Assembly: GCA_963838925.1 (NCBI GenBank)
Contig: CAWISW010000003.1
Location: 32,001 to 96,000, forward strand
From: an uncultured Nitrososphaerota archaeon
Lineage (GTDB): Archaea; Thermoproteota; Nitrososphaeria; Nitrososphaerales; Gagatemarchaeaceae
Length of the DNA stretch: 64,000 nt
Direction: 5' to 3'
Shown here: positions 13,632 to 17,250 of the stretch, piece by piece
Layout: each line of letters begins with the position of its first letter
Position numbering within the stretch: position 1 is the first letter of the stretch
Position numbers and translations under genes: made by a program
The notes under the pieces: model-generated
Told to the model about the DNA's origin: nothing
Seen by the model: only the letters and a program-made list of their open reading frames with translations
Database searches by the model: none

Positions 13632-13726
13632 GCCGGCGTAGCTCAGCCTGGTAGAGCGAACCACCTAATCGTGGGCTCAAGTCTCTCGTAAGGACTAGGT
13701 CCCGTGTTCAAATCGCGGCGCCGGCT
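13632..13726 (+). tRNA. tRNA-Thr(CGT) with a 21-nt non-canonical intron (13660..13680, position 27/28)
   Basis: GCCGGCG/CGCCGGC acceptor, U73; spliced anticodon arm AGTCT-CTCGTAA-GGACT; BHB-like junction GAGC/GCTC helix with inner CCAC/GTGG stem; followed by T-tract. Confidence 0.9.
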
Positions 13727-15681: not shown

Positions 15682-16068
15682 TTGGCGGACGCAAAATTGG
15701 AAACGGTCAACGGCAAACTGCAACTCGTGATAAGCAGCAAGAAGGTCCTCGTACGCGTGGAGCGGGTCGAGGACTCGTTCATGACGTGGGACGGGCAGGT
15801 GCGAGTCAACAGGAGAAGGGTGAAGGTCTACGACTACGTATTCGACGACAGCCAGGCGAGGGCCCTGAAGGAGGCCCGCGAACTGGCGAGCAAGTCAGGC
15901 ATGGAGCTCGTGGTGACCGACCTCACCCGGCGGAGCGCCCTAGAGCGCTTCTTTCGGTCCGGGCTGAACATGATCCGCGCGCAAGCGCGCGTGAGGACGG
16001 TCACCGCCGAGAAAGGCACTGGGCCTCGAAGTTCCGACAGTCTCAGGCCGCAGGCCTGCCGGCCTTGA
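15682..16068 (+). CDS. Hypothetical protein
   Basis: Host-like codon usage; no recognised motif. Confidence 0.55.
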   Translation: MADAKLETVNGKLQLVISSKKVLVRVERVEDSFMTWDGQVRVNRRRVKVYDYVFDDSQARALKEARELASKSGMELVVTDLTRRSALERFFRSGLNMIRAQARVRTVTAEKGTGPRSSDSLRPQACRP

Positions 16069-16501
16069 AGTCGGCCTCGAGCGCCTTCTTGTAGATCTTC
16101 CAGTGCTTGATCCCGTCTGCCTCCCACTCGTCCTTGTCCTCGACCTCCCTCTTGCTGTCGTACGTCACCACGAACTTCATGTCGAGCCTGGACTTGTTCT
16201 TGCCCAGTGGTTTCACCTTGTAGTCGCCCACCTCCCTCCCGTCTCCGCAGGTGTCAAGGTGCCACGACTTTGGACGGTTGAGCCACACCGCCCTGACTCC
16301 CTCAAAGGTGTCCTTGCCCTCTTTGTAGGTGACGCGCCAGACGACGCGCTGCGGGCTCTTCTCGAGGATCTTCCTGGTGGTCTTGGACCCTGTGTACTTG
16401 TTGTCGTCCTCCCGGAAGTCCGTGCACCATGAGAAGACGTAGTCCACTGGGGCGTTGACGTCTATTGATAGCTTGTATTTCTGATTGATTGGCCTGGCCA
16501 T
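16043..16501 (-). CDS. SRPBCC/START-like domain protein
   Basis: SIDVNAPVDYVFSWCTD...C-terminal WKIYKKALEAD helix. Confidence 0.6.
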   Translation of the reverse strand: MARPINQKYKLSIDVNAPVDYVFSWCTDFREDDNKYTGSKTTRKILEKSPQRVVWRVTYKEGKDTFEGVRAVWLNRPKSWHLDTCGDGREVGDYKVKPLGKNKSRLDMKFVVTYDSKREVEDKDEWEADGIKHWKIYKKALEADFKAGRPAA

Positions 16502-16555
16502 GTCCTGAATCCAAGCACAGCTTCGAAGTGTTCGAGTTAAGTGTTTCCGGCGCAC

Positions 16556-16568
16556 CGAAAACTTAAGT
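16556..16568 (+). promoter_or_regulatory. BRE plus TATA-like box of tRNA-Phe
   Basis: CCGAAAACTTAAG about 27-39 nt upstream of the tRNA. Confidence 0.55.
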
Positions 16569-16594
16569 GAGCATCGAGTCTGAGCCGGAGTCGT

Positions 16595-16731
16595 GCCAAG
16601 GTAGCTCAGCCTGTCCCTACGGGGGCTATGGAGAGTGCCGCAAGGCCTCTAACACTCGGCTGAAGACCGAGAACAACCGTCACAAGGATTGTTGTCGGGA
16701 TCTGTCGTCGGTTCAAATCCGACTCTTGGCA
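16595..16731 (+). tRNA. tRNA-Phe(GAA) with three non-canonical introns (16614..16629, 16636..16652, about 16672..16701)
   Basis: Removing the three inserts gives a canonical 74-nt cloverleaf GCCAAGGTAGCTCAGCCTGGGAGAGCACTCGGCTGAAGACCGAGCTGTCGTCGGTTCAAATCCGACTCTTGGCA. Confidence 0.9.
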
Positions 16732-16778
16732 CTTTAATCAACGAGCACCCACGCTCGAATCTATGCTCTGACCCGGGA

Positions 16779-17156
16779 CTAGTCGTACGTCTTCACCGTC
16801 GCCCACTCCGCCGAGCTCCCTGGCAATCATTCCTGACATGAAAACGACCGTCGCCTCGACGAACGCGGGGACCACGTGGATCGAGACGAGCGAGTCGCCG
16901 GTCACAGGATAGAGGACGGCCGCGATCCAGGCTATCATCGGCGGAAAGTCGACGTAGCCCAGCGAGAGGTGCTGGGTCCCGCTCACGATGTAGTACAGCT
17001 CGTCGCGGAAGTACCCGTAGTTCCCCGCGAAGACCATGTGGACGGCGAAGTCCGCCATGCCGAGATACGCGAGGAGCGCCGTCGTGCTGGAGCGACGTCT
17101 TCGAGAGGAGGTCTGAGCCAGGCTCCTTGCTGGATCGAGCCGCTCTTGGCTTTCAT
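16779..17156 (-). pseudogene. GT39/ArnT-like glycosyltransferase remnant with a large internal deletion
   Basis: N-terminal YGYFRDELYY...LGYVDFPP...ARELGG joined out of frame to a C-terminus-like EWATVKTYD-stop; start uncertain. Confidence 0.65.
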
Positions 17157-17250
17157 TGGCTCCTTCCGGATTTATCGAAATGAGGATATTATCTTTGTGA
17201 AGACGAGGTCGCACCGCGGCGCCTAGATACAAGAAGGAGCGATGGGAGAC

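What the first reader, a model, noticed from the sequence alone, without database searches (positions are those of the whole stretch)
16595..16731. tRNA-Phe with three non-canonical introns and a 6-nt exon
Seen: introns of 16 nt (18/19; full BHB with AGCC/GGCT and CTC/GAG), 17 nt (24/25; GGAG/CTCT helix, GCAA-capped stem) and about 30 nt (43/44; relaxed junction, boundary uncertain by 1-2 nt); none at canonical 37/38. Exon 2 is only GGAGAG and is needed in the splice structures of both intron 1 and intron 2, so removal should be sequential. Known: triple-intron tRNAs are described mainly in Thermoproteales. Standard annotation may miss this gene.
Basis: partly seen in the sequence, partly recalled or inferred. 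Interest (0 to 1): 0.7.

Follow-up and report, generated by a model that had tools for sequence, protein, structure and literature searches.

The report
Three-intron tRNA-Phe gene, soil thaumarchaeon
This is a real phenylalanine tRNA gene broken by three short protein-spliced introns, one pair leaving only a six-base exon between them; it is a well-made new example of a known archaeal oddity, found here in a soil thaumarchaeon rather than in the hot-spring archaea where such genes were first described.

Summary
Window 16595-16731 (+) is a tRNA-Phe(GAA) gene in four exons of 19, 6, 19 and 30 nt. The introns are 16614-16629 (16 nt, position 18/19), 16636-16652 (17 nt, 24/25) and 16672-16701 (30 nt, 43/44). 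Joining the exons gives a 74-nt tRNA-Phe.

Introns 1 and 2 have 4/4-paired bulge-helix-bulge (BHB) cores. Intron 3 is relaxed (3/4, one A.G). Orthologs that lack one intron or another fix every boundary, including the third.

ARAGORN and Rfam at its curated threshold both miss the gene. No other tRNA-Phe was found in the 87%-complete genome. The genome encodes a two-subunit EndA and RtcB.

The host is a soil or peat thaumarchaeon (Nitrososphaerales-like), not Thermoproteales. In its genus, 8 of 18 tRNA-Phe genes carry three introns, spread over six positions.

The GGAGAG micro-exon between the 18/19 and 24/25 introns recurs in other families. It pairs in both BHBs, so the two cannot be complete at once. 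Stepwise splicing is inferred, not shown.

Multi-intron tRNAs and splicing in a required order are already in print. Verdict: new member of a known kind, modest interest.

The parts
16557..16570 (+). Promoter-like box (GAAAA-CTTAAGTGA); TTAAGT lies at -32 from the tRNA 5' end
   Evidence: TTAAGT is present at -31 to -34 in 16 of 18 genus orthologs, while the rest of the upstream sequence diverges. Reading it as an archaeal BRE/TATA element is an inference.
16595..16613 (+). Exon 1 (19 nt): acceptor 5' strand, U8 A9, D-stem 5' strand, D-loop up to G18
   Evidence: Orthologs without the 18/19 intron read ...CAGCCTG-GGAGAG directly.
16614..16629 (+). Intron 1, 16 nt, position 18/19, full hBHBh' motif
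   Evidence: H 4/4, inner helix 3 bp, outer helix 3 bp, one possible boundary. Across the 15 unique genes carrying this intron class, H is 4/4 in 12 and 3/4 in 3.
16630..16635 (+). Exon 2, the 6-nt micro-exon GGAGAG (G19 G20 A21 G22 A23 G24)
   Evidence: The same hexamer lies between the same two introns in G031 and G033 (other families) and in the 14 stretches, parsed.
16636..16652 (+). Intron 2, 17 nt, position 24/25, HBh'-type motif (outer helix 1 bp)
   Evidence: H 4/4 (GGAG/CTCT), inner helix GCC/GGC with a GCAA loop. Across the 23 unique genes with this class, H is 4/4 in 20 and 3/4 in 3. G020 has a TTCG loop on the same stem.
16653..16671 (+). Exon 3 (19 nt): C25, A26, anticodon arm with loop CUGAAGA (anticodon GAA, G37)
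   Evidence: (the Rfam tRNA model aligns this arm).
16672..16701 (+). Intron 3, 30 nt, position 43/44, relaxed BHB (H 3/4 with A38.G)
   Evidence: The inner helix covaries across the genus (ACAAC/GTTGT, ACGAT/GTCGT, GCAATTATC/GATAATTGY). The boundary is fixed by orthologs without this intron, which read CCGAG-CTGTC.
16702..16731 (+). Exon 4 (30 nt): variable loop CUGUC, T arm, acceptor 3' strand, discriminator A73; no encoded CCA

Best explanation
Window 16595-16731 is the functional tRNA-Phe(GAA) gene of an uncultured soil or peat thaumarchaeon, and apparently its only one. It is transcribed as a 137-nt precursor from a conserved TATA-like box about 32 nt upstream.

Three introns are removed by the archaeal protein-splicing pathway. 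A two-subunit (alpha-beta)2-type EndA cuts in the 3-nt bulges of a BHB motif at each junction, and RtcB joins the ends. A CCA-adding enzyme then finishes the 3' end.

Intron 1 (18/19) presents a full hBHBh' motif. Introns 2 (24/25) and 3 (43/44) present relaxed motifs that lack an outer helix, the kind that needs the broad-specificity enzyme type.

The 6-nt exon GGAGAG supplies the outer helix of the intron-1 motif and the central helix of the intron-2 motif. One precursor molecule can therefore display only one of these two complete motifs at a time, so introns 1 and 2 are removed one after the other. A consequence is that the hexamer would never be released as a free piece. Intron 3 uses only the 3' strand of the anticodon stem and can go independently.

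Shown: the gene, the exon and intron boundaries, the motifs, their conservation, and the presence of the enzymes. Inferred: transcription, actual splicing, stepwise removal and its order.
For: (1) Exons joined by coordinates give a 74-nt sequence that ARAGORN calls tRNA-Phe(GAA). It has U8, A14, G18G19, G20, U33, G37, the T-loop and A73, read directly. The significance of these positions for tRNA-Phe is recalled knowledge.

(2) BHB counts for the three introns are H 4/4, 4/4 and 3/4, with inner helices of 3, 3 and 5 bp. Only 7 of 3383 possible (start, end) pairs in the gene reach H 4/4 with an inner helix of 3 bp or more. Introns 1 and 2 are among them.

(3) Eighteen of 23 genomes of the genus yielded a tRNA-Phe gene. 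Each of the three introns is absent from some orthologs, with the exons abutting exactly at the proposed junctions.

(4) Inner helices covary while the intron strand of H stays conserved.

(5) A conserved upstream box is present in 16 of 18 orthologs.

(6) There are two EndA homologs of 190 and 195 aa, each with both Pfam EndA domains. The first matches heterotetramer catalytic chains best (3p1z_B, E 9.6e-42) and keeps Tyr, His and Lys. In the second, the His position aligns with Ala. RtcB is present at 570.7 bits.

(7) No second tRNA-Phe was found by ARAGORN with introns allowed, by RF00005, by an anticodon-arm scan or by blastn of the mature sequence.

(8) Contigs from two peat metagenomes (X2, X3) carry the gene with 2 differences but with unrelated flanks. 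X2 spans all of it (16592-16733). X3 spans 16592-16706 and ends at its contig end, just past intron 3.

(9) In print: Thaumarchaeota have alpha2beta2 enzymes and multiple noncanonical introns. Closely spaced introns may need one removed before the next BHB can form (passages seen).
Against: There is no RNA evidence. No RNA run holds the locus, so transcription and splicing are unobserved.

Nearest-neighbour folding does not give the BHBs as the minimum-energy structure. The whole precursor folds to -59.3 kcal/mol. Enforcing the intron-1 motif gives -50.2 and enforcing the intron-2 motif gives -57.3. The same method also fails to return the cloverleaf for the mature sequence, so I treat this as uninformative rather than contrary.

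Intron 3 has an A.G mismatch in H, and a competing register has a perfect 4-bp H.

Motif-only searching is permissive. Of 4592 BHB-like intron combinations in this gene, 580 give an ARAGORN call (357 of them Phe), and one alternative third intron scores as well as the proposed one. Intron 3 therefore rests on orthologs, not on the motif.

The genome is 87% complete, so another tRNA-Phe could be unassembled.

The stepwise order is pure inference. An alternative BHB-like pairing (16609-16629; H 4/4, inner helix 5 bp) would delete the G18G19 region if it were used.
Confidence: 0.88

Rival explanations
1. Same gene, but the third intron is cut in the other register (16673-16700, 28 nt). This uses the perfect 4-bp helix CCGA/UCGG and gives a mature tRNA with a 7-nt variable loop.
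For: In this register H is 4/4 in 8 of the 10 genus genes that carry this intron, with 3-nt bulges and an adjoining inner helix. G007 fits only this register without a U.U mismatch. It is one of the 7 strict BHB pairs in the gene, and ARAGORN still calls the product tRNA-Phe.
Against: Orthologs without the intron (G006, G012, G022, G018, and other families) all have a 5-nt variable loop, CTGTC or a close variant. The two nucleotides that would be added vary among species (A/T and T/G), whereas CTGTC is invariant. G015 and G011 have A.C in this register, and G015 has a compensating G-C in the preferred register.
Confidence: 0.07
2. The locus is a decaying or unused tRNA-like relic, and the working tRNA-Phe lies in the unassembled 13% of the genome.
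For: The genome is 87% complete. There is no expression evidence. Standard finders do not call the locus.
Against: All cloverleaf pairs and conserved positions are intact after splicing. The splice motifs, the promoter-like box and the gene itself are conserved across 18 genus genomes and beyond. A near-identical copy occurs in two other metagenomes. No other candidate was found. Eight isotypes are missing from ARAGORN's calls genome-wide, and a hidden three-intron tRNA-Tyr was found by hand. Being missed by finders is therefore normal for this genome.
Confidence: 0.03
3. Introns 1 and 2 are not removed stepwise. EndA cuts all four D-arm sites on relaxed motifs in one encounter or in no fixed order. 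The hexamer is held in place by base pairing until ligation.
For: The 5' sites of both introns lie in bulges flanked by H and an inner helix, and these can coexist. A structure with both H and inner-helix sets enforced costs -15.2 kcal/mol locally, against -14.1 for the full intron-1 motif and -17.1 for the intron-2 motif. (alpha-beta)2 enzymes accept hBH and HBh' forms (passage seen).
Against: In that combined structure, the 3' site of intron 1 sits in a 2-nt linker at a three-way junction, not in a 3-nt bulge (reasoned from the sequence). A freed 6-nt exon would probably be lost. Published statements describe closely spaced archaeal tRNA introns as needing removal in order.
Confidence: 0.2

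Closest known systems
Multi-intron tRNA genes of Thermoproteales (Pyrobaculum, Thermofilum), from the SPLITS/SPLITSX screens of Sugahara et al. 2007 and 2008. I saw only reference listings for these, plus a passage in PMC3218864.
   Same: Up to three BHB introns in one tRNA gene. They sit at noncanonical positions, are short, are removed by a heterotetrameric EndA, and are missed by simple tRNA finders.
   Different: The host is a mesophilic soil or peat thaumarchaeon, not a hyperthermophilic crenarchaeon. No similar intron copies were found in other tRNA genes of this genome, so large-scale intron transposition as reported there is not evident here.
Nested or closely spaced archaeal pre-tRNA introns processed in a required order: Tocchini-Valentini et al. 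2009 PNAS (not held; content recalled), and statements seen in tRNAscan-SE 2.0 and PMC3728597.
   Same: One BHB can be complete only when the neighbouring intron's pairing is absent, so cutting and joining must occur in rounds.
   Different: Here the dependency is a shared 6-nt exon used by two mutually exclusive motifs, rather than one intron lying inside another. Either order looks possible.
Thaumarchaeal noncanonical tRNA introns, modelled by a dedicated BHB covariance model in tRNAscan-SE 2.0 (107 noncanonical introns in the genomes they analysed; passage seen).
   Same: Same phylum, same kind of short BHB introns at D-arm and other positions.
   Different: I could not see their supplementary lists. 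I therefore cannot say whether a three-intron thaumarchaeal tRNA-Phe or the GGAGAG micro-exon is already catalogued.
Multi-intron nuclear tRNA genes of the red alga Cyanidioschyzon merolae, including a two-intron tRNA-Phe(GAA) (PMC3728597; passages seen).
   Same: Several BHB introns per tRNA gene. Intermediates were observed in an order that follows motif stability.
   Different: A eukaryotic enzyme, and introns whose motifs fold independently.
[quoted passage not shown]
   Same: D-arm introns that annotators miss, repeated gains at many positions, and introns that sit at BHB-compatible sites.
   Different: A different phylum. That paper contains none of the words Nitroso-, Thaumarch-, sequential or micro-exon.

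Membership tests
Archaeal BHB (EndA-spliced) tRNA intron | Two 3-nt bulges separated by a 4-bp helix at the exon-intron junctions | tested here: met
   Intron 1 has H 4/4 with both flanking helices. Intron 2 has H 4/4 with the inner helix only. Intron 3 has H 3/4 (A.G) with the inner helix only, a relaxed form.
Archaeal BHB (EndA-spliced) tRNA intron | Removal restores a canonical cloverleaf tRNA | tested here: met
   The exons joined by coordinates are called tRNA-Phe(GAA), 74 nt, by ARAGORN. The unspliced locus scores 18.9 bits against the 29-bit Rfam threshold.
Archaeal BHB (EndA-spliced) tRNA intron | Splicing endonuclease of a type able to cut relaxed motifs, plus an RNA ligase, encoded in the genome | tested here: met
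   Two EndA homologs: one catalytic-like, and one lacking the aligned His. RtcB at 570.7 bits. The subunit roles are inferred from alignments, not assayed.
Archaeal BHB (EndA-spliced) tRNA intron | Spliced product and excised (often circular) introns observed as RNA | not testable with these tools
   No RNA run is listed for this locus. The runs laid were DNA contigs.
Three-intron tRNA genes as described for Thermoproteales | Three separate BHB introns in one collinear tRNA gene | tested here: met
   Also met by 8 of 18 genus orthologs and by L031 and L042.
Three-intron tRNA genes as described for Thermoproteales | Host belongs to Thermoproteales | tested here: not met
   Twelve of the 14 genome records sharing the double D-arm intron are titled Thaumarchaeota, Nitrososphaer- or Nitrosopumilales. 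Two of them are identical in this gene to 'same order' relatives G031 and G033. The locus is held by soil and peat metagenomes.
Three-intron tRNA genes as described for Thermoproteales | Similar intron sequences shared among different tRNA genes (intron transposition) | tested here: not met
   blastn-short of the three introns against the genome returned only themselves as significant hits. Power is low for 16-30 nt queries.
Split or permuted tRNA gene | Exons at separate loci or in permuted order | tested here: not met
   All four exons are collinear within 137 nt.

The most novel reading that the evidence does not exclude
The hexamer exon GGAGAG, flanked by the 18/19 and 24/25 introns, is an old arrangement kept across several thaumarchaeal families. 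Its two mutually exclusive splice motifs act as a built-in interlock that forces one-at-a-time splicing, so the 6-nt piece is never set free.

On top of this, the genus shows live intron turnover. One tRNA gene carries introns at six different positions (15/16, 18/19, 24/25, 30/31, 37/38, 43/44) across 18 species. That would make it a compact natural system for asking how archaeal tRNA introns are gained and lost.
Probability: 0.35. Interest if true: 0.5.

Novelty: new member of a known kind. Interest (0 to 1): 0.32.

Why it matters
For annotation: this genome's apparently only tRNA-Phe is invisible to ARAGORN and to Rfam at its curated threshold. ARAGORN calls no tRNA at all for eight amino acids in this genome. 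A three-intron tRNA-Tyr turned up by hand. Completeness and codon-capacity estimates for such soil thaumarchaeal MAGs will therefore be wrong unless an intron-aware finder is used.

For biology: it extends three-intron tRNAs to mesophilic Thaumarchaeota. It also gives a clean case of two splice motifs competing for one 6-nt exon. And it provides a within-genus series of gains and losses at six sites of a single gene. That series bears on the still-open question of how these introns arrive, which the 2026 Asgard preprint abstract also leaves open. None of this overturns current understanding.

Tried and rejected
Thermodynamic folding. Neither the whole precursor nor the local D-arm segment gives any BHB as the minimum-energy structure. 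The local energies are -20.2 unconstrained, -14.1 with the intron-1 motif and -17.1 with the intron-2 motif. They hint that the intron-2 motif forms more readily. The method also fails on the mature cloverleaf, so I draw no conclusion on splicing order.

Intron copies elsewhere. Only self-hits were significant. A loose pattern for the genus-specific 15/16 intron matched at the same rate as its reversed control, apart from the tRNA-Phe genes themselves, so it gave nothing.

RNA evidence. No RNA holder is listed. The four runs laid were DNA contigs.

Lineage by amoA. There was no match, but the control genomes also gave none, so this is uninformative.

The bacterial promoter and terminator scan found nothing. 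It does not apply to archaea.

A strict scan for hidden tRNAs, requiring an intact T arm and a perfect acceptor stem, gave 18 candidates. The only convincing new one was this gene. The other 'new' hit lacks tRNA features by eye.

Brute-force BHB removal plus ARAGORN is too permissive to fix boundaries on its own.

Neighbouring ORFs 16043-16555(-) and 16738-17232(-) have no Pfam match.

Rows dropped or handled specially:
- L049 (G005, contig C48) matched the 15-nt 5' pattern inside what looks like coding sequence, with no anticodon or T arm. I excluded it.
- Five genus genomes (G003, G008, G009, G014, G017) gave no tRNA-Phe candidate.
- L036 is cut by a contig end and duplicates L039.
- L040 and L044 equal the G033 gene. 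L043 equals the G031 gene.
- L042 failed my extraction regex and was read by hand.
- For G007 the aligner misplaced the third intron, and I read it by eye.
- The bracketed H strings printed are shifted by one base. This is a display slip; the counts are right.
- The 14 stretches were selected by a pattern that requires both D-arm introns. They say nothing about how common that arrangement is.

Papers. PMC2787110 and PMC1852824 are not held, and their content is recalled. Supplements of the tRNAscan-SE 2.0 paper, which may list thaumarchaeal multi-intron tRNAs, could not be seen. A search for 'order of splicing' together with multiple introns, archaea and tRNA found 0 papers. PDB entry organisms and the EndA catalytic triad are recalled, not given by the tool. 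tRNAscan-SE and SPLITS are not available here.

Full report
**What is there.** The + strand at 16595-16731 starts with an acceptor strand, U8 A9 and the 5' half of a D arm. It ends with a normal variable loop, T arm, complementary acceptor strand and discriminator A. An anticodon arm with loop CUGAAGA lies in the middle. Three insertions break the cloverleaf. ARAGORN finds no gene here. Rfam at its curated threshold finds none either. With a permissive threshold the Rfam tRNA model aligns only the anticodon and T arms, with a 31-nt insertion between them, at 18.9 bits against a 29-bit cut-off.

**Boundaries.** I used the geometry of the bulge-helix-bulge (BHB) motif: a 4-bp helix H flanked by two 3-nt bulges, each cut after its second base. 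I derived this rule from the canonical 37/38 case and recalled literature.
- Intron 1 is 16614-16629 (16 nt, between G18 and G19).
- Intron 2 is 16636-16652 (17 nt, between G24 and C25).
- Intron 3 is 16672-16701 (30 nt, between G43 and C44).
- The exons are 19, 6, 19 and 30 nt.

Joined by coordinates they give 74 nt, which ARAGORN calls tRNA-Phe(GAA). A splice-aware alignment of that mature sequence back to the gene recovers the same three gaps, each with a single possible boundary. The pairing counts are as follows:

| Intron | H pairs | Inner helix | Outer helix |
|---|---|---|---|
| 1 | 4/4 | 3 bp | 3 bp |
| 2 | 4/4 | 3 bp | 1 bp |
| 3 | 3/4 | 5 bp | 1 bp |

Of 3383 possible start and end pairs in the gene, 7 reach H 4/4 with an inner helix of at least 3 bp. 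Introns 1 and 2 are among them.

**Comparative proof.** A DNA search of 41 related genomes and a pattern search of the 23 genomes of the genus gave a tRNA-Phe gene in 18 genus genomes, including this one. Five genomes gave none, and one chance hit was dropped. These genes carry different subsets of introns at six positions:
- 15/16 in 12 genes
- 18/19 in G000, G019 and G021
- 24/25 in 11 genes
- 30/31 in G022 and G018
- 37/38 in G016, G004, G013 and G021
- 43/44 in 10 genes

Every intron of the window gene is absent from some ortholog, and there the exons abut exactly at my junctions. G011, G006 and G010 lack 18/19. G019 lacks 24/25.

A second register of intron 3 (16673-16700) has a perfect 4-bp helix, but it would give a 7-nt variable loop that no ortholog has. 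This matters because the motif alone cannot decide. A brute-force removal of BHB-like segments gave 580 ARAGORN calls from 4592 combinations (357 of them Phe), including an equally scoring but wrong third intron.

Inner helices covary between species. For intron 3 they are ACAAC/GTTGT, ACGAT/GTCGT and GCAATTATC/GATAATTGY. The stem of intron 2 carries a GCAA loop here and a TTCG loop in G020. The intron strand of H stays complementary to the fixed exon strand throughout.

**Eight of the 18 genus genes have three introns.** The window's combination (18/19, 24/25, 43/44) is unique among the 18 genomes held. It does recur with 2 differences in peat-metagenome contigs whose flanks do not match. Contig X2 spans the whole gene. 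Contig X3 covers 16592-16706, which takes in all three introns, and then reaches its end.

**Whose gene.** The genome is 1.84 Mb in 3 contigs, about 61% G+C and 87% complete. I scanned all species-representative genomes for the double D-arm intron around GGAGAG and found 14 stretches. Twelve are in records titled Thaumarchaeota, Nitrososphaer- or Nitrosopumilales, one is titled Aenigmarchaeota and one 'archaeon'. Some of these genes are identical to those of G031 and G033, which the tool places in the same order as the window genome but in other families. Soil and peat metagenomes hold the locus. The host is therefore a thaumarchaeon of the Nitrososphaerales in the broad sense, not a member of Thermoproteales.

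Two of the 14 stretches, L031 and L042, also have three introns: 18/19, 24/25 and 37/38, around the same hexamer exon.

**Machinery and signals.**
- The genome has two EndA homologs of 190 and 195 aa, each with both EndA Pfam domains.
- The first is closest to catalytic chains of heterotetrameric enzymes (3p1z_B, E 9.6e-42) and keeps Tyr, His and Lys in the aligned motif.
- In the second, the His position aligns with Ala, as expected of a structural subunit.
- This fits the (alpha-beta)2 type that reviews assign to Thaumarchaeota and link to relaxed motifs (passage seen).
- RtcB is present.
- A box containing TTAAGT lies 31-34 nt upstream in 16 of 18 orthologs, amid otherwise diverged sequence. 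I read it as the promoter.
- No CCA is encoded.
- No other tRNA-Phe was found.

**How it most likely works.** The precursor is cut by EndA at six bulge sites and joined by RtcB. Intron 3 pairs only with the 3' strand of the anticodon stem and is independent of the others.

Introns 1 and 2 share exon 2. G36 is the third base of the 3' bulge of intron 1 and also the first base of helix H of intron 2. G37-G39 form the outer helix of intron 1 with C13-C11, and also form H of intron 2 with C55-C53. The two complete motifs therefore exclude each other in one molecule.

If both central helices form together, the 3' site of intron 1 sits in a 2-nt linker at a three-way junction rather than in a bulge (my reading of the sequence). 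I therefore expect two rounds of cutting and joining, which also avoids ever releasing a free hexamer. Either order is structurally possible. Local energies slightly favour the intron-2 motif, but I do not trust them. All of this paragraph is inference.

**What is known.** Passages I saw state the following:
- Archaeal tRNA genes can hold up to three introns, mostly in Pyrobaculum and Thermofilum.
- Crenarchaeota and Thaumarchaeota have tRNAs with multiple noncanonical introns.
- tRNAscan-SE 2.0 has a Thaumarchaeota-specific BHB model. [quoted passage not shown]
- In some archaea the last intron can form its motif only after the others are processed.

The in-vitro study of multi-intron precursors (Tocchini-Valentini 2009) is not held, and I cite it from memory and from reference lists. 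The finding is therefore a new member of a known kind. What may be new is a triple-intron tRNA-Phe in a mesophilic thaumarchaeon, the conserved 6-nt exon, and the turnover within one genus. I could not check the supplementary catalogues that might already list these.

**Verdict.** Interest is modest at 0.32. The gene is real and correctly dissected, but the mechanism class is established.

Noticed in passing
window 13632-13726 (+): ARAGORN's 'tRNA-???' is, by my reading, a tRNA-Thr(CGT) with a 21-nt intron at 27/28. It has H GAGC/GCTC and inner helix CCAC/GTGG. A TTTAAAAGTG box lies upstream and a T-run downstream.
   Followed up: partly
G000:C2:351959-352114 (+), outside the window: A second three-intron tRNA in the same genome: tRNA-Tyr(GTA) with a C1-G72 pair. 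Its introns are at 351982-352000 (D stem), 352016-352059 (37/38) and 352082-352100 (T loop). ARAGORN and Rfam both miss it.
   Followed up: partly
Rfam has 25 matches over its threshold. Many tRNA genes are probably hidden by multiple or noncanonical introns. The genome is 87% complete.
   Followed up: partly
window 16592-16733, in runs X2 and X3: Two peat-metagenome contigs carry the three-intron gene with 2 differences, one being T16701G at the last base of intron 3. X2 covers 16592-16733. X3 covers 16592-16706 and ends at its contig end. The sequence on the covered flanks is unrelated, and the upstream part resembles the promoter region of G001 rather than that of G000.
   Followed up: no
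window 16609-16629: An alternative BHB-like pairing (H 4/4, inner helix 5 bp) overlaps intron 1. If it were used it would delete the G18G19 part of the D loop, so it is a possible mis-splicing competitor.
   Followed up: no
L005 (G010), around 1467-1485: The tRNA-Phe of G010 reads GTAGACTCAG where all other orthologs read GTAGCTCAG. This is an extra A in the 5' strand of the D stem, either an assembly error or a real 1-nt insertion.
   Followed up: no
L075 (G015) and L009 (G001), intron at 43/44: The 43/44 intron of G015 and G001 contains GTGATGA, which looks like a box C motif. Four sister species have GTGATAA at that place, so it is probably just part of the inner helix.
   Followed up: no
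L060 (G022) and L062 (G018): These two species have a 17-nt intron at 30/31 inside the 5' strand of the anticodon stem (H 4/4). They have no intron at 24/25, 37/38 or 43/44.
   Followed up: partly
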